Below, piece by piece: positions 13,841-52,365 of a stretch of 64,000 nucleotides of DNA. The notes below the pieces were generated by a model. That model ran no database searches. It was not told the DNA's origin and was given only the letters and a program-made list of their open reading frames with translations. This DNA is from Malacoraja senta. Lineage: Eukaryota. Numbering within the stretch: the first letter of the stretch is position 1; every line of letters starts with the position of its first letter. A program made the position numbers and the translations under genes. Where the stretch lies: NCBI GenBank assembly GCA_038087875.1, contig CM075991.1, forward strand, positions 13,766,001 to 13,830,000. Reading direction: 5' to 3'.

Positions 13841-14062
<222 letters not shown>

Positions 14063-36104: not shown

Positions 36105-37002
<898 letters not shown>

Positions 37003-42686: not shown

Positions 42687-43776
42687 TGGAGAAACTCAGC
42701 GGGTGAGGCTGCATCTATGGAGCGACGGAAATGGGCAACGTTTCGGGCCGAAATCCTTCTTCAGACTGATGTGAGGGGGGGGCAGGAAGAAGAAAGGAAG
42801 AGGTGGAGCCAGTGGGCTAGGGAGAGCTGAGAAGGGGAAGAGAATTAGAGAAGTCAATGTTCATACCGCTGGGGTACAAACTACCCAAGCGAAATATGAG
42901 GCGCTGCTCCTCCAATTTCCGGTGGTCCTCACTCTGGCCATGGAGGAGACCCAGGACAGAAAGATCGGATTCGGAATGGGAGGGGGAGTTGAAGTGCTGA
43001 GCCACCGGGAGATCAGGTTGGTTAATGCGAACCGAGCGGAGGTGTTCGGCGAAGTAATCGCCAAGTCTACGCTTGGTCTCACCGATGTAGATCAGCTGAC
43101 ATCTAGAGCAGCGGATGCAATAGATGAGGTTGGAGGAGATGCAGGTGAACCTCTGTCGCACCTGGAAAGACTGTTTGGGTCCTTGAATGGAGTCAAGGGG
43201 GGAGGTAAAGCGACAAGTGTAGCATTTCTTGCGGTTGCAAGGGAAAGTGCCCGGAGAGGAGGTGGTTTCGTGTGGGAAGGGACGAATGGACCAGGGAGTT
43301 ACGGAGGGAGCGGTCTCTGCGGAAAGCAGACAGGGGAGGAGATGGGAAGATGTGGCAAGTGGTGGGGTCACATTGGAGGTGGCGAAAATGACGGAGGATT
43401 ATTTGTTGTAGGTGACGGCTGGTGGGGTGGAAGGTGAGGACAAGGGGGACTCTGCCCCTGTTACGAGTGGGGGGCTGGGGAGAGAGATCAGTCACGGGGT
43501 ATTGAAGAGACCCTGGTGAGAGCCTCATCTATGGTAGAAGAGGGGAACCCCCGTTCCCTGAAGAATGAGGACATCTGCGATGCCCTGGTGTGGAACACCT
43601 CATCCTGGGAGCAGATGCGGCGTAGAGAGAGGAAGTGTGAGTAGGGGATGGAGTCCCAACAGGAAGCAGGGTGGGAAGAAGTGTAGTCCAGATAGCCATG
43701 GGAGTCCGTGAGTTTATAGTGGATGTCGGTCAGAAGTCTATCACCTGCTACCATCACAGGTGATAGACTTCTGACC
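42687..43776 (-). mobile_element. Penelope-like retroelement, 5'-truncated: RT C-terminus, GIY-YIG endonuclease and 3' end
   Basis: DIHYKLTDSHGYLDYTSSHP...SIPYS; CNRKKCYTC; IYCIRCSRCQLIYIGETKRRLGDYFAEH; frameshifted; 20-bp inverted duplication at the 5' end. Confidence 0.9.
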
Positions 43777-43873
43777 AACACCACGGCCACGCTTGGCCAG
43801 GCCGACCCTGCAGCGCCGCCATGGCAACGGGCCTACATGGTCAGGTCAAGATCCCTGCACTTACAACAACTGG

Positions 43874-44912
43874 TAGATATGTTACAAAACTTACCTTCAG
43901 CGGCGCTGCAGTTCTGCCACTGGCCGTGTGCGCGACTTTGGCGCCTTTGAGGGGGGGGCGGGGTTAAAATGCGTTTTTTTCTCCTGCCTGTCCTGGATAT
44001 ATTTTCTCGGGCTGCTAGCTAATGCTGAAGAATTGTTCCGACTGCCGTTCTGTGAATTTTTTTTTTAAATCGTGGGCCAATTTCAGCTCTGGAGTAAAAT
44101 AAAAATCCGCTTCTAATGCCGTCAACGCTGATAACCGGGACGGATTTCACGTACGGGACAGCTAAAGGTAAGCCGTTTATTTTACATATAAACGTGCTTC
44201 TTAGGATTACCTTAATCCAAATTTTACGTCGTGAAACGGTGATTTAGGCCCCATACGAACCGGCAGAGTTTTTCCTGCCGATATGGAGTTTAAATTCACC
44301 GCAACCACAACAATCCAATCGATCGCGTTCCACAAAATCCCACTCGCAAGATGATTAAAATGGCTATTAATTTACAGGAATTAAACACTAAATTCCTTCC
44401 ATTTGGCCTATAAATTCATGACAATGAGATTTAAAAATTATGTTATATTGTGAATTCTTGTGTGAATGTTATTTGGACACAGACTATTTAAAAATGTTAA
44501 TCTTTTCTTAAGAAATGGATAGATGTTTAGATCTAGTAATTGAATTTTGTAATTAGCTACAATTATGTAACTAACTAATTATATGCTTTAATTTCAGGTC
44601 ATCCTAGTAAGATTGTTTCATATTTGTTTCAGAATGCTTCAATCTATAATAACTGGAAATTTATTTCAGTTCTCTTAATTTTTAAGAAAGTTATGGGCTT
44701 TTGACTGTCCTCGATCACAGCTTTTGTGTTGTCAATGGAAAAGCAATAGGGAACAAAATGCTAATTTCCGAGTATGAAAATGGCCATAACTTTTTTAATA
44801 CTGAAGATATGAAAGTGAATTAGGTGTCAAATTAAACTTCTAATTATGCTTTATCTGATGGGGTAAATTGCAGACTTGATTTTAAAAATCTCAAAATGTT
44901 GTAACATTGCTA
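43874..44912. mobile_element. Non-autonomous DNA transposon with TAG...CTA termini and 7-bp TSD (hAT-related?)
   Basis: tagatatgttacaa...ttgtaacattgcta; caactgg on both sides; AT-rich, no long ORF. Confidence 0.8.
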
Positions 44913-46332
44913 CAACTGGGACTTGAAAATGGTCCCAATGTAGCGACTCTGTACACCGTCTCAGTGCACGACTGCTGTACACTTGTACCGTGTATGAGAT
45001 GCTTACCCACGATGTATCTAAAGACTTATGTATAGTGATACTTGTACTGAACTGTGTACAAAAATGAATTTCACTGTACTTCTGTATATGTTACTAATAA
45101 AGTACAATTGTACCATAGATACCAAGTAGCTGAAAGGCTGTTGTGTTTCAGGAAGTGTTGAGACAGAGATACAAACGTCCTCAACTTCCTCCTTCCAGTT
45201 ACCGCTCCCAAAGATGCACACAGACTTCTGAAACACTTGTGCTCCGTTTCGCAGAACACCTCCGCACAGTCCACCTTGGCCTATGTGATCTCCCAGTTGC
45301 CAATCGTCTCAACTCCCCCTCCCATTCCCACACTGACCTTTCTGTCCTGGGCCTCCTCCATTGCCAGAGTTTGACCCAGTGCAAATTGGAGGAACAGCAC
45401 CTCATATTTCGCTTGGGCAGCTTACACCCCATTGACTTCTCAAATTTCAAGTATTCGCATTGCATTCGCTTCCCCCGCCCCCCCACCCCAAAAAAACCTC
45501 TTCACCCCCACAGAGATCGGAGTCACAAGCAGAGTTCTAGTTCCGGTTACAGTTAAGCAACTACAAGAGGCACTTATGAAATTATAACTAAGATCTACAA
45601 AAACCCATCAATATAAAGAGATACGGGCAGCACGAAGGCGCAGCGGTAGAACTACTACCTCACAGCGACAGAGACCCAGGTTGGATCCTGATTACGGGTG
45701 CTGCCCGTATGGAGTCTGCGCTTGCACGTTCTCCCCGTGACCGCGCGGGTTTTCTCCGGGTGCTCCGGTTTCCGCCCACATTCCGAAGATGAACAGCTTT
45801 GCCCGTTAATTGCCCTCAGTAAAAATTGTAAAACGTCACTAGTGTTGGAGATAGTGCTAGTGGACGGGGTGATCACTGATCAGCACGGACTCGGCGGGCC
45901 GAAAGGCCTGTTTCCGCCGTGTATCACTGAACTACATTTTTTTAAAGATGACCGAAGAATTATAATAGAGCTTCCTCTTTCTTCCCCGGTTGTACAGCTG
46001 GTAAAATGGGTCCACAGGCAATTGCTTTACAGCCTTGAGAGTGAATTCTAAAACTTGCCTAAAGTTAAACGACCATAAGATATAGTAGCAGGATTAGGCC
46101 ATTGCACACTTAGTTTTGATTGTGCTGATGAATAATATGATTTTTTGCAACACAAAGTATTTCACTGGATCTCGCTACATGTGACAATATAGTATAATTG
46201 AACTATGTGATAATAGGGAATAGGTAAACATTAGAATTTTACCCCCCACAGGTTACAAACCATAACCACCTCCTCCTACCCCTCTCATAACAACTTGAAC
46301 GCAAGTCCCGATCAACTCCAACGCCAGACTTC

Positions 46333-46475
46333 CTTATTCTTCTTCTTGCGTATGGCGTGCACAGCCTAAAGTTGGAGGACAACTTGTTCTCTTTGATCTT
46401 ATTTGATTGTGCACACCGGGTTGATTGCATTCGTCGAAACAGGGTGGACCACGTGAAGGTTGCAACTCCCACCCC
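46333..46475 (-). mobile_element. Short ribozyme-headed non-autonomous retroelement (Ingi/Vingi-like?) with (AAG)n tail
   Basis: About 143 nt from ribozyme G1 to ...gccatacgcaagaagaagaataag. Confidence 0.65.
46424..46475 (-). ncRNA. Minimal HDV-like (CPEB3-type) self-cleaving ribozyme, predicted
   Basis: Minus strand reads GGGGUGG GA GUUGCA ACC UUCACGU GGU CCACCCU G U-UUCG-A CGAA UGCAAU: fully paired 7-bp P1, P2, P3, UUCG mini-P4, catalytic C at 46433. Confidence 0.85.
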
Positions 46476-47394
46476 AGTTTCATATTGATGATAGACTTGA
46501 TAGAGATACAGCGTGGAAACAGGCCCTTCGGCCCACCGAGTCCACACTGACCAGCGAACCCTGCACATTAATACTATCCGGCCCACACTAGGGTCAAGTC
46601 CCAGGCCCCGACCACGGGTGAACATTGGGGAACATCAGCGAGGAGGTTGACTGGACTTTGGTTCCTTCCCTCACAGTGGGAACTTTGGTACCGCTGTGGG
46701 GATGTTTGTGTTGTGGACCACTGTGTTCTGTGTTTTGTGGGGTTTTTTATTTTATTTTTTGTATGACTGTAAGGGAAAAAAATGTTGTTGTCTCTTCATT
46801 GAAGAGAATGACAATAAATTAAATCAAATCAAATCAAACATACACCAAGCCAATTAACCGACATACCTGGGTAAGTAAGAACTGCAGATGCTGGTTTAAA
46901 TCGAAGGTAGACACAAAATGCTGGAGTAACTCCTCAGGTGAGGCAGCTGGAGAGAAGGAATGGCCGATGTTTCGGGGCTGAAGAAGGGTCTCGACCTGAA
47001 ACGTCGCCCATTCCTTCTCTCCAGAGATGCTGCCTGTCCTGCTGAGTTACTCCAGCATTGTGTGTCCAATTTAGCATCATGTTTAGCACGGACATTGTGG
47101 GCCGAAGGGCCTGTTGCTGGGTTATACTGTTCTATGGGGTGAATAAGCCCAATACCAGCTGAGCCTCAGACACTTCCCAAAACCATAGAGAAGTGAAGCC
47201 GGGTAGAGTGTGGGCGATGGAGTTGTGGGTCACGGTGCAGGGAAAGTCTTGCACCCAGGGACAACACCTGTTTAACAAACAGTCAATGGTACCCATGCAT
47301 CCTGAGGCCTAGCGTTGATCCAAGGAGCAGCACTTCTGGTGTGGCAGTCGTGCAGTGCAGCACTTTCCCCCAGTGCAGCCCCTCCAACAGCTTC

Positions 47395-47497
47395 CTCCCC
47401 GTGCAGCTCCCTCCAGTGCAGCCCCTTGCCCCAGTGCAGCCCCTTGCCCCAGTGCAGCCCCTTGCCCCAGTGCAGCCCCTTGCCCCAGTGCAGCCCC
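47395..47497. repeat. 18-bp minisatellite (cagtgcagccccttgccc)n with degenerate flanks at 47350-47670
   Basis: 4-5 near-perfect units visible. Confidence 0.9.
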
Positions 47498-48379
47498 CTC
47501 TCCCCGCTCACTGCAGCACCCCTTCCCCCAACGCAGTCCCCTACCCCCCCCAACACCACACCTGCCCCAGTGAAGCTCCCTTCTCCCCCACAATGCAGCT
47601 CCTCCCCCCCATCCATGAAGCTCCTTCCTTCTCCCCCATGTCACACGTGCCCCAGTGCAGCCCCCTTTCCCCAACTATTAACCAGCATATGCACTTCCTC
47701 GTTCCTGCAAGGGACTTCACTGTATTTGTTTAGTAAAGGCTATGTTTTCGCAGAAGAGAGCCCAGCCCAACTCTGCCCTCAACCCACATCAGACAGGGGA
47801 GGTCGGACTTACAATCGGACCCTTGTCTGACTGGAGCTGGGTTTCTCGTGATCCTCTCTCCTGCCAAAGGGTTTTTAACCTCAAAGATTACACATCCCTG
47901 CTGTTCCAACAAAGTAGGCCCAATGTAAATCTGCCCACCCGACTCCAAAAGCTCAGTGGGTTCCTGTGTCTGATGGGGAGGTTGAGATGGGGGCTGAAAG
48001 ATGATTGCGTATGGGCGGCCCGGTGGCGCAGCGGTAGAGTCGCTGCCTGACAGCGCTTGCTGCGCCAGAGACCCGGGTTCCATCTCGACTGTCTGTACCG
48101 AGTTTGTACGTTCTCCCCGTGACCTGGGTGGGTTTTCTCCGAGATCTTCGGTTTCTTCCCACACTTCAAAGACGTACAGGTTTGTAGGCTAATTGGCTTG
48201 GTGGATGTGTAACTTGTCCCTAGTGCGTGCAGGATAGTGTTGGTGTGCGGAGATCGCTGGTCGGTGCAGACGAGGTGGGCCAAAGGGCCTGTTTCCGTGC
48301 TGTATCTCTAAACTAAACTAAAAGGTAATTCTACAAGGCAACGGTATGGGCCAATTGACCCTGTTAACTGCGAAAGAGA

Positions 48380-48710
48380 GAAAGGCTTGCATTTTACTAT
48401 CGCCTTTCATCTCCCATTGAGAATGCCCGTATCCACTCCCTGCCAATTGGGGGGGGCTTCGAAGTATGACCATCGCCACAAGTTAGGAAGCGCGAGAGCG
48501 TGTTTTTTTTTTTAAGAGGCAACAGCCACGCAGCAATGAGACAAAGGCTCATCTACCACAGGTGCAGATCAGGGGAAGCACGACGCTGAACTACCAGGAA
48601 AAACACTCTGCTCCTCCACAAACTGCGACCAGCATCTCTGACCGCCACACTCCAGAGAAGACAGGGCCTCTGTTTAATGCTTCCGACAGAAGAGGGCATC
48701 TCTGAGTAGG
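48380..48710 (-). mobile_element. Ancient, degenerate Deu-domain SINE (SacSINE1/AmnSINE-like)
   Basis: acagggcctctgtttaatgcttccgacagaagagggcatctc and ttgcattttactatcgcctttca resemble the reverse of the Deu domain and tail as I recall them. Confidence 0.45.
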
Positions 48711-51700
48711 TTTACACCGAAGATAGACACAAAATGCTGGAGTAACACAGCGCGACAGGCAAGTAGAATTAGGCCATTCGAACCATCAAGTCTACTCCAC
48801 CATTCAATCATGGCTGATCTATCTCTCCCTCCTAACCCCATTCTCCTGCCTTCTCCCCATAATCCCTGACACCCTTACTAATCAAGAATCTATCTATCTC
48901 TGCCTTAAAAATATCCACTGACTTGGCCTCCACAGCCATCTGTGGCAAAGAATTCCACAGATTCACCACCCTCTGACTAAAGAAATTTCTCCTCATCTCC
49001 TTCCTAAAAGAACGTCCTTTAATTTTGTGGCTATGACCTCTAGATAGAAGGAATGGGTGACGTTTCGGGTCGAGACCCTTTTTCAGACTGAAGGAGTCTG
49101 ATGAAGGGTCTCGACCCGAAACGTCACATATTCCTTCGCTCCAGAGATGCTGCCTCACCCGCTGAGTTCCTCCAGCATTTTTGCCTACTCCAGCACTTTG
49201 TGTCCCTTTTGTGTAAACCAGCATCTGCAGTTCCTTGTGCCTACAAGAGTCAAGAGTGAGTGATTGTCGTATGTACTGAAAACGAAAGTGAAATTCTTCC
49301 ATGGATCAGCGTATCAGATCCATAAACTCAGTACTTATCAATAACATAATATAAACGATTATTTGGAAATCCCACGTATTAGTGCAGAAAGCCTGAAGTC
49401 CTTTGAACAATCAAGGCACTTCAAAGTTCACAGCTTAATTAGTCTTGTGTAATGTTTCAGAGTCTGATGATTAGAGTCATACAGTACGAAAAAAGTTCCA
49501 TCAGTACAATTCATTCACGTTGACCAAGATGTCCCATCTAAGCTTGTCCCATTTACCTGCATTCATACAATACCCTTCTAAACAGTACCTATCCATGTAC
49601 TTGTCCAAGGGTCTTTGAAATGCTATTTATGGTACCTGCCTCAACTACCTCTTCCGGCAGCTCGTTCCATACACCCACCACCCTCAAGTTCCTATTAAAT
49701 GTTTCCACTCTTACAATGTCTCCCGGTTCTGGATACCTCTACTCTAGGTAAAAGATTCTGTGAAGTCACCCTGCCCAAGCCCCTCGTGATTTTATACATC
49801 TTGAATGTGTCACCCTCAGCCTCCAGCGCTCCAAGGAATGATCTCCCAGCCTGCCTAACCTCTCCCAATCGCTCAGCCCCTCAAGTCCCGGCAACATCCT
49901 CGTAAATCATCTCCCCACTCATTCCGTGATTGTTGGGATGAAGCTGTTCTTGAAACGGGAGGTCTTGGTTTTCAGACTCCAGACTAGCTCCTTACCAACT
50001 GTAGGAGTGAAAAGTAAGCTTGGCCAGGGTGGTGTGGGCACTCGATGATGAGGATTCTCTTGAACCTCTACAGGTGCACAGTAGAGAGCATATTAGCTGG
50101 TTGCATCGTGGCCTGGTTCGGCAACTTGAACGTCCAGGAGCGGAAAGAACTTCAAAAAGTTGTGACCACTGCCCAGTCCATCCCCGGCTCTGACCTCCCA
50201 ACCATCAAAGGGATTTATCGGATTCGCTGCCTCAAAAAGGCAGCCAGCATCATCAAAGACCCACACCACCCAGGCCACACACTCATCTCACCATTGCCAT
50301 CAGGAAGAAGGTACAGGATCCTGAAACTGTAAAGACCAGGTTCAGGAACAGCTTCTTCCCCACAGCCATCAGGCTATTAAACACTAAAGCTTCATAAGCT
50401 ATGAACTACAATAGACTATTATTATTATTATTGCACTGTTATCAGTTTTTTAAAATAATTTTTGTTATATTATTCATTATGTTTACATATTGTGTTGTGC
50501 TGCAGCAAGTAAGAATGTCATTGTTCTATCTGGGACATATGACAATAAAACACTCTTGGCAATGGTTCTAAGCGACAGTAGCGCAGGCTCCAGGACTGAA
50601 TGGCCAACACCAGCTGGACTTGACCTTTATCTTGCACCAAATGTTATTCACTTTATGTGTTGGAATGAGCTGCTCGATGCTGGCTTTCACCGATGGTAGA
50701 CACAAAACTCTCCAGTAACTCGACGGGACAGGCAGCATCTCTGGAGAGAAGGAATGGGTGACGTTTCAGGTCGAGACCCTTCTTCAGAGTCAGGGGAGAG
50801 GGAAACTAAAGATATGGAACGGTAAGGTGTGAAAAAGACAGATCAAAGCAGACGCTGATCAAGGAAATGTAGAATGGTCCATTATTGACTGAGGGGAAGG
50901 GGACAACAAGGCATACAAACAGTTAAAAAAATATGTTCTGTCATAGAAACATAGACAATAGGTGCAGGAGCAGGCCATTCGGCCCTTCGAGCCAGCACCA
51001 CCATTCAATATGATCAGAGCTAATCATCTAAAATCAGTAACCAATTCCCGTTTTTTCCCCATATCCCTTGATTCCGTTAGCCCTAAGAGCTAAATCTAAC
51101 TCTCTCTTGAAGATATTCAGTGAATTGGCCTCCACTGCCATCTGTGGCAGAGAATTCCACAGAGTCACAACTCTCTGGGTGATATGTTTTTCCTCATCTC
51201 AGTCCTAAATGGCCGACCCCTTATTCTTAAACTGTGTGACCCCTGGTGCTGGGCTCCCCCACGATGGGGAACATTCTTCCCGCATCGAGCCTGTCCAATC
51301 CCTTGATGTCCTGGAATTTAAAGTGGGTTGGACTGCCACCAACCCTACTGGACTGTTAACGTTGAGAAGCATGACATACCTCAGAGGGGGGGGGGGGGTT
51401 ACATTCAGAATTTGTAAGAGTCACATCTATTGTCTGCAGACATGAGTTACAGCTTACAGCTGACCATGTAAAAGGAATCCTAGGAATGGGAGACGTTTTC
51501 AGGAACTTGGTGTCCGTCTGGGGTTTTTTTGCTGCACACTGTGTGCGGAACACCTGCCTGCTTAAGTCATGGCTTCCCAAAAGTTGTAAAGGTCAATAAA
51601 TATCTTTGCGTGGGGTTTTCCTTGGTTTTTGTAACTGGAACAGTGTAATCTCCCACACATTCCCCACTCAACCACTAGTGTGGAGTCAGAGGAGACCCCC

Positions 51701-52165: not shown

Positions 52166-52365
52166 NNNNNNNNNNNNNNNNNNNNNNNNNNNNNNNNNNN
52201 NNNNNNNNNNNNNNNNNNNNNNNNNNNNNNNNNNNNNNNNNNNNNNNNNNNNNNNNNNNNNNNNNNNNNNNNNNNNNNNNNNNNNNNNNNNNNNNNNNNN
52301 NNNNNNNNNNNNNNNNNNNNNNNNNNNNNNNNNNNNNNNNNNNNNNNNNNNNNNNNNNNNNNNNN
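52166..52365. other. Assembly gap (200 N)
   Basis: N run between a CR1 fragment and a Rex-Babar fragment. Confidence 1.

What the first reader, a model, noticed from the sequence alone, without database searches (positions are those of the whole stretch)
46333..46475. SINE-like element headed by an intact 52-nt minimal HDV/CPEB3-type ribozyme, on the PLEKHA2 sense strand
Seen: the minus strand from 46475 reads GGGGUGG-GA-GUUGCA-ACC-UUCACGU-GGU-CCACCCU-G-U(UUCG)A-CGAA-UGCAAU. All helices of the nested double pseudoknot pair: a 7-bp P1 starting with G.U, plus P2 and P3. P4 is reduced to a UUCG loop and the catalytic C is at 46433. About 90 nt later the element ends in ...gccatacgc(aag)n. Established: HDV-like ribozymes define the 5' ends of R2, RTE and L1Tc/ingi retrotransposons, and UUCACGU and CGAA are the L3 and J4/2 of the mammalian CPEB3 intronic ribozyme. 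Inference: this is a non-autonomous retroelement with no Pol III promoter that cuts its own 5' end out of host transcripts and borrows an Ingi/Vingi-like RT. If it lies in PLEKHA2 intron 1 it could cleave the nascent pre-mRNA, as the CPEB3 ribozyme does.
Basis: partly seen in the sequence, partly recalled or inferred. Interest (0 to 1): 0.92.

Follow-up and report, generated by a model that had tools for sequence, protein, structure and literature searches.

The report
Ribozyme-headed short retroelement, Vingi family
This 143-base stretch is one of well over a thousand copies of a stripped-down LINE retrotransposon whose first 52 bases form a tiny self-cutting RNA motif of the hepatitis-delta/CPEB3 type, and it ties the well-known mammalian CPEB3 ribozyme to the Vingi family of LINEs.

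Summary
The minus strand 46475-46424 reads exactly as described, and every helix of an HDV-like double pseudoknot can pair. L3 and J4/2 are identical to the Rfam CPEB3 consensus.

It is a mobile element with at least 1,645 first-look candidates. 436 copies carry the exact majority ribozyme and 165 the exact older variant. Copies start at G1, end in (AAG)n and have target-site duplications in 25 of 33 cases.

I found the autonomous partner, a roughly 4-kb endonuclease plus reverse-transcriptase LINE. It has the same ribozyme at its 5' end and the same last ~22 bases. By eye its reverse transcriptase is Ingi/Vingi-like.

The genome also holds at least 39 matches to Rfam CPEB3_ribozyme above threshold. 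Four of them lie about 870 bases upstream of related reverse-transcriptase matches; one was read through and heads such a LINE. Across these families the three helices covary: 10 of 16 pairs change on both sides, and 0 of 500 shuffles reach this.

Self-cleavage is untested and no RNA data could be laid. Whether this copy lies in the PLEKHA-like gene's intron 1 is unresolved. It is a new member of a known kind, with an apparently unpublished link between CPEB3 and Vingi.

The parts
46424..46475 (-). 52-nt minimal HDV-like (CPEB3-type) ribozyme at the 5' end of the element. P1 46475-46469 pairs with 46447-46441. J1/2 46468-46467. P2 46466-46461 pairs with 46429-46424. P3 46460-46458 pairs with 46450-46448. 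L3 UUCACGU 46457-46451. J1/4 G 46440. 6-nt linker in place of P4 46439-46434. J4/2 CGAA 46433-46430, with the putative catalytic C at 46433.
   Evidence: Sequence; Rfam CPEB3_ribozyme alignment with no non-canonical pair flagged; descriptor hit; covariation with related families. Compared with the family majority, this copy lacks one A between J1/2 and P2 and has A instead of G at 46445; both variants still pair.
46348..46423 (-). Body of the non-autonomous element. The first ~25 nt match the LINE 5' UTR just after the ribozyme. The last ~22 nt (TTAGGCTGTGCACGCCATACGC) match the LINE's extreme 3' end, and CTACAACTTTA-like sequence matches its 3' UTR.
   Evidence: Comparison with L069 and with the deletion derivatives listed.
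46333..46347 (-). 3' microsatellite tail AAGAAGAAGAATAAG, i.e. (AAG)n.
   Evidence: The same tail type ends the partner LINE copy L069 and the related LINE L079.
46409..46417 (-). 5' strand (GGUGUGCAC) of a possible long-range stem that pairs with 46362-46354.
   Evidence: The MFE folds of A-, B- and C-type copies all contain this stem. It is short, and its core GTGCAC is a palindrome.
46354..46362 (-). 3' strand (GUGCACGCC) of the same possible long-range stem, directly before AUACGC(AAG)n.
36847..36987 (-). Context only: ATG-containing exon of a TAPP/PLEKHA-like gene ([47 protein letters not shown]), 9.4 kb downstream of the element on the same strand.
   Evidence: Six-frame motif scan. Further exons of the same gene lie near 13948 and 2119 on the minus strand.

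Best explanation
The 143 bases are one copy of a bipartite non-autonomous derivative of a Vingi-like LINE, that is, the LINE's 5' end joined to its 3' end with the ORF deleted. The element has no promoter-bearing small-RNA head. Its first 52-53 nt are a P4-less HDV-like ribozyme of the CPEB3 type.

Inferred mechanism: copies are transcribed as part of longer host or read-through transcripts. The ribozyme cuts just 5' of G1 and so releases an RNA with a defined, structured 5' end. The 3' terminal ~22 nt plus (AAG)n are recognised by the endonuclease/RT protein of a Vingi-like LINE, which copies the RNA into a new site by target-primed reverse transcription. This leaves 8-13-bp target-site duplications.

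Shown: the repeat family, its exact 5' and 3' limits, the duplications, the partner LINE sharing both ends, and the conserved, covarying fold.

Inferred: catalysis, co-transcription, and which LINE protein currently drives the young subfamily.

This particular copy is most likely a neutral insertion upstream of, or in the first intron of, a PLEKHA-like gene.
For: Fold and core:
- Searches give the sequence, the CPEB3 core identity and the single descriptor hit.

Family:
- 1,645 first-look candidates. All 40 scored are 95-100% identical and 36 of 40 start at base 1.
- 32 hits in 30 loci have unrelated flanks.
- 25 of 33 copies have a duplication of at least 7 nt that abuts G1 and the tail.
- There are 436 exact copies of the 53-nt majority ribozyme (CGAA) and 165 of the CUAA variant.

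Partner LINE:
- At least 10 of the 100 listed rows continue from the ribozyme into a long form.
- L069 has the ribozyme (5'-truncated by 10 nt), then an ATG about 54 nt downstream of it, then Exo_endo_phos_2 (E 2.6e-8) and RVT_1 (E 1.3e-25). It ends in ...TTAGGCTATGCACGCCATAAGC(AAG)3.
- Of the 8 long-form 5' ends fetched, only L074 begins with the full GGGGTGGGAG. L075, L076 and L077 are near-complete with changed first bases, and the other four are 5'-truncated.
- Subfamilies with different internal breakpoints all keep the ribozyme and the last ~22 nt.

Clade:
- By eye, 57 of 87 RT residues are identical to the RTclass1 reference 'Ingi-1_AAl hedgehog', with TSSRKFxYADD shared. Similarity to RTE-15_BF is far lower.
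- Repbase Vingi-2_Gav, Vingi-4_Crp, Vingi-2_SPur and Vingi-1_BF 5' ends carry the same L3 and CGAA core.

Relatives in this genome:
- 39 of 59 scored matches to Rfam CPEB3_ribozyme exceed 35 bits, the best at 64.2. 20 of 20 fetched matches were confirmed at 43.7-64.2 bits.
- Four of these matches lie about 870 nt upstream of related RT matches.
- L079 is a 3.15-kb element with a 12-bp duplication, a ribozyme at its 5' end, a 934-aa endonuclease+RT ORF and an (AAG)n tail. Its protein is 36% identical to the partner's RT (161 of 444).

Covariation over 15 sequences of 6 families:
- 92.5% of cells are paired.
- 10 of 16 pairs change on both sides.
- 0 of 500 shuffles reach any measure.
- Slid controls give 40-50% paired cells and 1-2 such pairs.

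The position after the catalytic C varies G/U between subfamilies. The same G/U variation occurs between the canonical families here (L083 has CUAA) and in Rfam's F. prausnitzii consensus.
Against: - No cleavage assay and no RNA data exist for this element.
- This element scores only 18.5 bits against Rfam CPEB3_ribozyme (gathering score 35), and nothing is found when 5 kb are searched.
- P4 is missing.
- MFE stability is no better than shuffles (z +0.52).
- A generic fold match occurs in 8 of 60 shuffled windows.
- A 5' end at G1 is equally expected if transcription starts there from an internal promoter, as reported for L1Tc Pr77 (abstracts listed).
- Copies of the partner LINE are few and decayed: the next best is 85% identical in protein, most have stops, and open frames are at most 598 aa. 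The driver of the young subfamily is therefore not identified.
- After insertion the ribozyme decays as fast as the body: 0.024 against 0.017 substitutions per site in 31 copies, a sample biased to the best matches. This is expected for neutral copies and gives no support.
- In the covariation set 5 of 15 rows have lost the G1.U pair through mutation of G1. In addition the structure was derived from these same sequences and the rows are related, and both inflate the controls.
- The window copy has no clear target-site duplication.
- The clade assignment rests on comparisons by eye, not on a phylogeny.
Confidence: 0.8

Rival explanations
1. The conserved 5' module is kept for a role other than cutting, and the P4-less fold no longer cleaves. 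Candidate roles are an internal promoter, a nuclease-resistant 5' structure, or a signal needed by the LINE protein for 5' junction formation or translation.
For: - In L1Tc the first 77 nt are reported to be both promoter and ribozyme (abstracts listed).
- A review passage says the R2 ribozyme fold gives cap-like protection against 5' exonucleases.
- P4 is absent here and the Rfam score is sub-threshold.
- Kojima 2018 notes that bipartite non-autonomous LINEs keep their 5' ends for reasons not yet known.
Against: - All residues of the CPEB3 catalytic core are kept unchanged, while P1, P2 and P3 have changed sequence with compensation. That pattern is what is expected if the fold and core are under selection.
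- A second P4-less variant (L098) still passes the Rfam threshold at 43.7 bits.
- These other roles do not exclude cleavage.
Confidence: 0.13
2. The copy in the window has been taken over by the host. It lies in intron 1 of the PLEKHA-like gene in sense orientation and cuts the nascent pre-mRNA, tuning expression as proposed for the CPEB3 ribozyme.
For: - The copy has the same strand as the gene and lies 9.4 kb upstream of its ATG exon.
- All helices of this copy can still pair.
- The Cpeb3 ribozyme is reported to affect its host gene's expression (abstract listed).
Against: - It is one of more than 1,600 near-identical young copies.
- It carries a 1-nt deletion relative to the family majority.
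- No upstream exon or clear CpG island was found; the only weak signal, at 43001-44000, would place a promoter downstream of the element.
- No conservation test is possible for so young an insertion.
Confidence: 0.05
3. The HDV-like fold is a chance arrangement within an ordinary repeat.
For: A generic descriptor matches 8 of 60 shuffled windows. MFE stability is unremarkable.
Against: - L3, J1/4 and J4/2 are identical to CPEB3.
- The cleavage site coincides with the element's 5' end.
- There are homologous ribozymes scoring up to 64 bits in this genome, four of them about 870 nt upstream of related RT matches and one (L079) shown to head a related LINE.
- The helices covary.
Confidence: 0.02

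Closest known systems
Mammalian CPEB3 ribozyme (Rfam RF00622)
   Same: The nested double-pseudoknot plan is the same. L3 UUCACGU, the CCCUGU junction and J4/2 CGAA are identical, and P1 opens with G1.U. Related LINE 5' ends in this genome pass the family's gathering score.
   Different: - P4 is replaced by a 6-nt linker.
- The P1 (positions 5-7), P2 and P3 sequences differ, with compensation.
- The score of 18.5 bits is below the 35-bit cut-off.
- It is a multi-copy retroelement head in a non-mammal, not a single conserved intronic locus.
Vingi LINEs and their internally deleted non-autonomous derivatives (Kojima et al. 2011, not held here; Kojima 2018, PMC5786205, passages and supplement passages read)
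   Same: - It is a single-ORF endonuclease+RT LINE. The ORF would be about 988 aa if read through, against 993 aa reported for Vingi (passage).
- Pfam finds no RNase H.
- Bipartite 5'+3' derivatives exist.
- The 5' end has the same core as Repbase Vingi-2_Gav, Vingi-4_Crp, Vingi-1_BF and Vingi-2_SPur.
   Different: - The passages and full-text searches I ran link no Vingi element to a ribozyme.
- The ribozyme here is P4-less.
- Clade membership was not tested by phylogeny.
NARTc/RIME with L1TcRz (Pr77) in trypanosomatids (PMC3185411, PMC4035085, PMC3383444; search listing and abstract starts only)
   Same: These are non-autonomous, ORF-less derivatives that share with their Ingi-clade LINE a 5' HDV-like ribozyme defining the RNA 5' end.
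   Different: They occur in protozoa and have a 77-nt module that also acts as a promoter, with a different core sequence and poly(A)-type tails. Promoter activity was not examined here.
R2 SIDEs (Eickbush and Eickbush 2012, PMC3414825; listing and abstract start only)
   Same: They arise by internal deletion and keep the 5' ribozyme and the 3' protein-binding end.
   Different: They are rDNA-specific and belong to a restriction-like endonuclease clade. The element here inserts genome-wide.
Minimal HDV-like ribozymes (drz-Mtgn, theta ribozymes; PMC10879173, passages read)
   Same: They lack the P4 domain and are about 50-60 nt long.
   Different: They are known from metagenomes and gut phages, next to tRNAs. 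Here the ribozyme sits at the 5' end of a vertebrate retrotransposon and clearly derives from a P4-bearing CPEB3-type ancestor.
RTE, R1, R4 and LOA LINEs with 5' HDV-like ribozymes (Ruminski et al. 2011; not held, known through citations)
   Same: The proposed role is the same: 5' processing of a co-transcript.
   Different: The LINE clade and the core sequence differ.

Membership tests
HDV-like self-cleaving ribozymes | Nested double pseudoknot: P1 (7 bp) enclosing P3, and P2 pairing the segment after P1 with the 3' end. | tested here: met
   All 16 pairs form in the window copy. It is the only descriptor hit in the window. 92.5% of cells pair across 15 related sequences, and 10 of 16 pairs change on both sides.
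HDV-like self-cleaving ribozymes | Cleavage site directly 5' of G1, with G1.U closing P1. | tested here: met
   G46475.U46441. G1 is the first base of the element in 36 of 40 alignments. Only the position is met; cleavage is not shown.
HDV-like self-cleaving ribozymes | Catalytic cytosine in J4/2, followed by N-A-A. | tested here: met
   C46433 lies in CGAA. The older subfamilies and the LINE have CUAA.
HDV-like self-cleaving ribozymes | Self-scission in vitro that depends on divalent metal and on the catalytic C. | not testable with these tools
   This needs a bench assay.
Rfam CPEB3_ribozyme (RF00622) | Score at or above the curated gathering score of 35 bits. | tested here: not met
   18.5 bits, E 0.0055. 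Related LINE 5' ends in the same genome do meet it: 39 of 59 scored and 20 of 20 fetched.
Rfam CPEB3_ribozyme (RF00622) | P4 helix present. | tested here: not met
   A 6-nt linker UUUCGA takes its place.
Bipartite non-autonomous LINE | The 5' end is identical to the 5' end of an autonomous LINE. | tested here: met
   L069 and L071-L078 continue from the same ribozyme into a 5' UTR and ORF.
Bipartite non-autonomous LINE | The 3' end is identical to the LINE's 3' end, tail included. | tested here: met
   L069 ends in TTAGGCTATGCACGCCATAAGC(AAG)3. The element ends in TTAGGCTGTGCACGCCATACGC(AAG)n.
Bipartite non-autonomous LINE | No ORF, dispersed copies, target-site duplications. | tested here: met
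   129 nt plus tail. 25 of 33 copies have duplications. Copies lie on many contigs.
SINE in the strict sense (Pol III head) | 5' head derived from tRNA, 7SL, 5S or snRNA with an internal promoter. | tested here: not met
   ARAGORN finds 0 genes in 46200-46600. Rfam finds no such family in 44000-49000 at E<=10.
Vingi clade of LINEs | The RT domain groups with Vingi in a phylogeny. | tested here: inconclusive
   The comparison was by eye only: 57 of 87 residues identical to RTclass1 'Ingi-1_AAl hedgehog'. Reference sequences from papers could not be given to the alignment tools.
Vingi clade of LINEs | Single long ORF with endonuclease and RT, and no RNase H. | tested here: met
   Pfam finds Exo_endo_phos_2 and RVT_1 only in L069 (a frameshifted copy) and in L079. 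The absence of RNase H in a decayed copy is weak evidence.

The most novel reading that the evidence does not exclude
CPEB3-type ribozymes are the ancestral 5'-processing module of the Vingi LINE clade across deuterostomes, and the mammalian CPEB3 intronic ribozyme is a domesticated Vingi 5' end.

Outside the P4 loop, the Repbase Vingi-2_Gav 5' end printed matches the Rfam CPEB3 consensus at 52 of 54 positions, by my own count by eye. Family III here also shares the CAGAUUC P4 stem.

This genome records the reduction of that module to a 52-nt P4-less core, at least twice (the flagged family and L098). It also records its amplification to more than 1,600 copies, about 600 of them with an exact ribozyme. 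Sense-strand copies inside genes could therefore form a genome-wide set of co-transcriptional RNA cutters.
Probability: 0.4. Interest if true: 0.8.

Novelty: new member of a known kind. Interest (0 to 1): 0.55.

Why it matters
1. It adds a LINE clade to those with 5' HDV-like ribozymes. [quoted passage not shown]

2. It suggests a concrete source for the CPEB3 ribozyme, whose origin is not addressed in the passages I read. No paper in the searched library holds both 'CPEB3' and 'Vingi'. The human genome is reported to hold ancient Vingi traces.

3. It shows a natural route from a P4-bearing to a P4-less HDV-like ribozyme inside a vertebrate.

4. Vingi 5' and 3' UTRs are being used in RNA-delivered gene-insertion platforms (passages). 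If the 5' UTR is a self-cleaving ribozyme, that bears on how such RNAs are built and capped.

5. For annotation, Rfam's 'Mammalian CPEB3 ribozyme' model hits LINE 5' ends in a non-mammal above threshold. The P4-less family escapes it.

Tried and rejected
- Rfam at E<=10 over 44000-49000 gave no ribozyme hit. Only the 101-base search did.
- The 17-mer search in the window is uninformative: 1 match, but 21 of 100 shuffles also reach one at up to 3 mismatches.
- I tried to find the partner with 'not-this-base' IUPAC patterns placed next to the ribozyme or the tail. These returned only deletion variants and copies with nested insertions. L032 has unrelated sequence after the ribozyme. L033 and L034 carry insertions, L034 a short element with inverted ends. 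L035 carries a CR1-like LINE fragment.
- A Pfam RVT_1 search of the genome gave 159,857 candidates.
- L070, a related 886-aa ORF with 46% identity to the partner's RT, shows no ribozyme, L3 motif or (AAG)n tail in the 5 kb fetched.
- The names of RT homologues in the large protein collection say nothing about the clade.
- A 2A-like motif was considered: the LINE's N-terminus has NPNGP, not the NPGP motif.
- RNA evidence: no RNA holder is listed.
- The CpG-island scan for a promoter found no clear island.
- Covariation within the family is uninformative: the copies differ mostly by CpG transitions.
- Earlier notes of this scan held nothing on this genome or sequence.
- Ruminski 2011 and Kojima 2011 are not held.
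- I could not give the RTclass1 or Repbase sequences printed in supplements to the alignment tools, so the clade and the CPEB3/Vingi identity rest on counts by eye.

Full report
**Observation.**
Read on the minus strand from 46475, the window gives GGGGTGG GA GTTGCA ACC TTCACGT GGT CCACCCT G TTTCGA CGAA TGCAAT. About 70 nt of body follow, then GCCATACGC and AAGAAGAAGAATAAG, ending at 46333. All pairs of P1 (7 bp, opening with G.U), P2 (6 bp) and P3 (3 bp) form, and the putative catalytic C is at 46433.

A generic descriptor of my own, with no demand on L3 sequence, finds this site and no other in the window. It also finds one site in 8 of 60 dinucleotide shuffles. The fold by itself is therefore weak evidence. 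RNAfold gives P1+P3 as the minimum-energy structure, but with z = +0.52.

Rfam finds nothing when 5 kb are searched at E<=10. On 101 bases it reports CPEB3_ribozyme at 18.5 bits (gathering score 35), E 0.0055. That alignment shows UUCACGU, CCCUGU and CGAAU identical to the consensus, and no non-canonical pair is flagged.

**It is a mobile element whose first base is G1.**
The window's own genome (G000, 1.94 Gb) gives 1,645 first-look candidates. The 40 that were scored are 95-100% identical, and 36 of the 40 alignments begin at query base 1. In the 30 loci fetched the flanks are unrelated.

A direct repeat of at least 7 nt (at most 1 mismatch) ends at the base before G1 and resumes right after the (AAG)n tail in 25 of 33 copies. 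The window copy is one of the eight without a clear one.

The 53-nt majority ribozyme occurs 436 times exactly. The variant with CCACCCT and CUAA occurs 165 times exactly.

The 31 best copies differ from their majority sequence by 2.0% on average. This sample is biased towards the youngest copies. The ribozyme and the body decay alike, as expected after insertion.

No tRNA-like or other Pol III-type head is detectable. The window copy lacks one A at the J1/2-P2 border and has A for G at 46445. Both changes keep the pairing.

**Subfamilies and the partner LINE.**
A pattern anchored on the tail listed several subfamilies:
- the young 'A' type, with CGAA;
- 'B' and several shorter types, with CUAA and different internal breakpoints;
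- 5'-truncated copies.

All of them keep the ribozyme and the last ~22 nt. At least 10 of the 100 rows listed continue from the ribozyme into a longer sequence.

One such locus, L069, has these parts in order:
- the ribozyme, 5'-truncated by 10 nt;
- an in-frame ATG about 54 nt downstream of it;
- an apurinic-type endonuclease (Exo_endo_phos_2, E 2.6e-8);
- a reverse transcriptase (RVT_1, E 1.3e-25);
- a 3' UTR containing CTACAACTTTA;
- the end ...TTAGGCTATGCACGCCATAAGC(AAG)3.

This copy is frameshifted. Of the 8 other long-form 5' ends fetched, only L074 begins with the full GGGGTGGGAG. L075, L076 and L077 are near-complete but their first bases differ, and the other four are 5'-truncated.

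The short element is thus the LINE's 5' end joined to its 3' end. Kojima (2018, PMC5786205, passages read) calls this a bipartite non-autonomous LINE and reports it only for RTE, Ingi, Vingi and R2.

Copies of this LINE are few and decayed. The protein that moved the young A subfamily is therefore not identified.

**Which clade.**
The tools could not take reference sequences from papers, so I compared by eye.
- The RTclass1 reference set is printed in the supplement of PMC3708506. In it, 'Ingi-1_AAl (hedgehog)' matches the L069 RT at 57 of 87 positions from SYRPISLL to GLLxK and shares TSSRKFxYADD. RTE-15_BF is far less similar.
- The supplement of PMC5786205 prints the 5' ends of Repbase Vingi-2_Gav, Vingi-4_Crp, Vingi-1_BF and Vingi-2_SPur. 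All carry GCG-TTCACGT-CGC ... CCCTGTCAG ... CTG-CGAA or close variants.
- Vingi is described as single-ORF and without RNase H. Pfam finds no RNase H here.

A phylogeny is still needed.

**Relatives in the same genome, and covariation.**
Searching G000 with Rfam CPEB3_ribozyme gave 59 scored matches, 39 of them above the gathering score, the best at 64.2 bits. All 20 that I fetched were confirmed at 43.7-64.2 bits.

Four of them lie about 870 nt upstream of RT matches. L079 is one such element, read through from end to end:
- a 12-bp duplication, GACAGAACAAAA;
- the ribozyme at the very 5' end, with its first two bases mutated;
- an ATG 29 nt after the ribozyme;
- a 934-aa endonuclease+RT ORF;
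- an (AAG)n tail;
- a total length of about 3.15 kb.

Its protein is 36% identical to the L069 RT (161 of 444).

The 20 sequences fall into five families. One of them (L098) is also P4-less.

For the covariation test I aligned 17 sequences: the window copy, 2 of the 41 minimal-family copies, and 14 of the 20 canonical ones. I left out L079, L082 and L089 as redundant or mutated at G1, and L094, L095 and L097 as 5'-truncated. I then dropped the window copy and L093, because MAFFT shifted them by one column.

On the remaining 15 sequences the three helices gave these results:
- 92.5% of cells paired;
- 10 of 16 pairs with changes on both sides, in 33 cells;
- 0 of 500 shuffles reaching any measure;
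- 40-50% pairing and 1-2 such pairs when the partners are slid by 1-3 columns.

L3, the G after P1, and C-N-A-A stay constant. Three caveats apply: the rows are related, the structure was drawn from these sequences, and 5 of 15 rows have lost G1.

**Mechanism.**
By analogy with R2, RTE and L1Tc, the ribozyme would cut the element's RNA out of a longer transcript just 5' of G1. This analogy rests on the literature as cited; Ruminski 2011 itself is not held. The structured 5' end would then stay on the RNA, and the LINE protein would start reverse transcription at the (AAG)n tail.

The exact coincidence of G1 with the DNA 5' boundary fits this reading. It would equally fit transcription starting at G1. 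Catalysis is not shown.

**Gene context.**
Minus-strand exons of a TAPP/PLEKHA-like gene lie at about 36987 (ATG exon), 13948 and 2119. The motifs used to find them were recalled from memory. The element lies 9.4 kb upstream on the same strand.

I could not map an upstream exon. Whether the gene is PLEKHA2 rather than PLEKHA1 was not tested.

**Novelty.**
Ribozyme-headed LINEs and their ORF-less derivatives are known: NARTc/RIME and R2 SIDEs (listing). P4-less HDV-like ribozymes are also known.

New, as far as my searches reach:
- the Vingi-like clade as a carrier of such a ribozyme;
- a P4-less form in a vertebrate retroelement;
- the near-identity of Vingi 5' ends with the CPEB3 ribozyme.

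The searches behind this claim are as follows. 'Vingi'+'ribozyme' found 6 papers, and none makes the link in the passages I read from the two relevant ones. 'CPEB3'+'Vingi' found 0 papers. 'CPEB3-like'+'ribozyme' found 1, which is unrelated. The library lacks most subscription journals, and Repbase or Dfam notes were not searchable.

Noticed in passing
G000 loci L079-L098 (for example L080:17-100 minus, L079:106-189 plus): The genome holds at least 39 matches to Rfam 'Mammalian CPEB3 ribozyme' above the gathering score, in at least five sequence families. Four lie about 870 nt upstream of RT matches of endonuclease+RT LINEs, and the one read through (L079) sits at the 5' end of a LINE with an (AAG)n tail.
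   Followed up: partly
Supplement of PMC5786205 compared with the Rfam consensus: The Repbase Vingi-2_Gav 5' end (positions 2-74) matches the CPEB3 ribozyme consensus at 52 of 54 positions outside the P4 loop, by my count by eye. This suggests that the CPEB3 ribozyme is a domesticated Vingi 5' end. No paper in the searched library holds both words.
   Followed up: partly
L098:21-74 minus: A second, independent-looking P4-less CPEB3-type ribozyme of 54 nt, with the linker TTTTCA and then CCAA. It still scores 43.7 bits.
   Followed up: no
window 46409-46417 and 46354-46362 (minus strand); the same segments in L067, L068 and L069: The segment just after the ribozyme (GGYGUGCAC) is complementary to the segment just before the tail (GUGCACGCC). 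In the full LINE this would pair the 5' UTR with the extreme 3' end. It is short, has a palindromic core, and has one mismatch in the older subfamilies.
   Followed up: partly
Rows on many small contigs (for example C50:240320, C147:144716, C207:19915): About 27 of the 100 listed rows share the same copy and the same 3' flank (…GCAAGACCTGTCTAATTGTTT). Five rows on C2 near 100.4-100.7 Mb also share one flank. These copies were multiplied as part of larger duplicated or tandem units, not by retrotransposition.
   Followed up: no
Rows: C1:5789193, C1:219422666, C1:257680478: The end of a different abundant repeat (…GCTGAGTTTCTCCAGCATTTTTGTCTACCTTCGATTTTCCAGCATCTGCAGTTC…) is joined, at slightly different points, to the 3' part of the element. 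This could be 5'-truncated insertions next to that repeat or template-switch chimeras.
   Followed up: no
L034:1160-1500 and L035 (minus strand, about 430-1500 of the reverse complement): There are nested insertions inside copies of the element. L034 carries a ~330-bp element with terminal inverted repeats (AAGATCCTACAGCGGAGCAAGATA…). L035 carries a 5'-truncated CR1-like LINE that ends in (ATCTATGT)n.
   Followed up: no
L069:141-190: The LINE ORF appears to start MPRVTRNPNGPSQ. NPNGP resembles the NPGP 2A motif reported for Ingi and L1Tc, but is not the same.
   Followed up: partly
L079:3040-3140: After the stop of the 934-aa ORF, another frame encodes a Cys/His-rich stretch (CECGEEDHTMQHCLVC). 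The C-terminus of this copy may be cut short by a frameshift.
   Followed up: no
window 52166-52365: A run of 200 N, which is an assembly gap or a masked stretch.
   Followed up: no
window 36847-36987, about 13948 and about 2119 (minus strand): Exons of a TAPP/PLEKHA1/2-like gene with two PH-domain-type motifs. The paralogue was not determined.
   Followed up: partly
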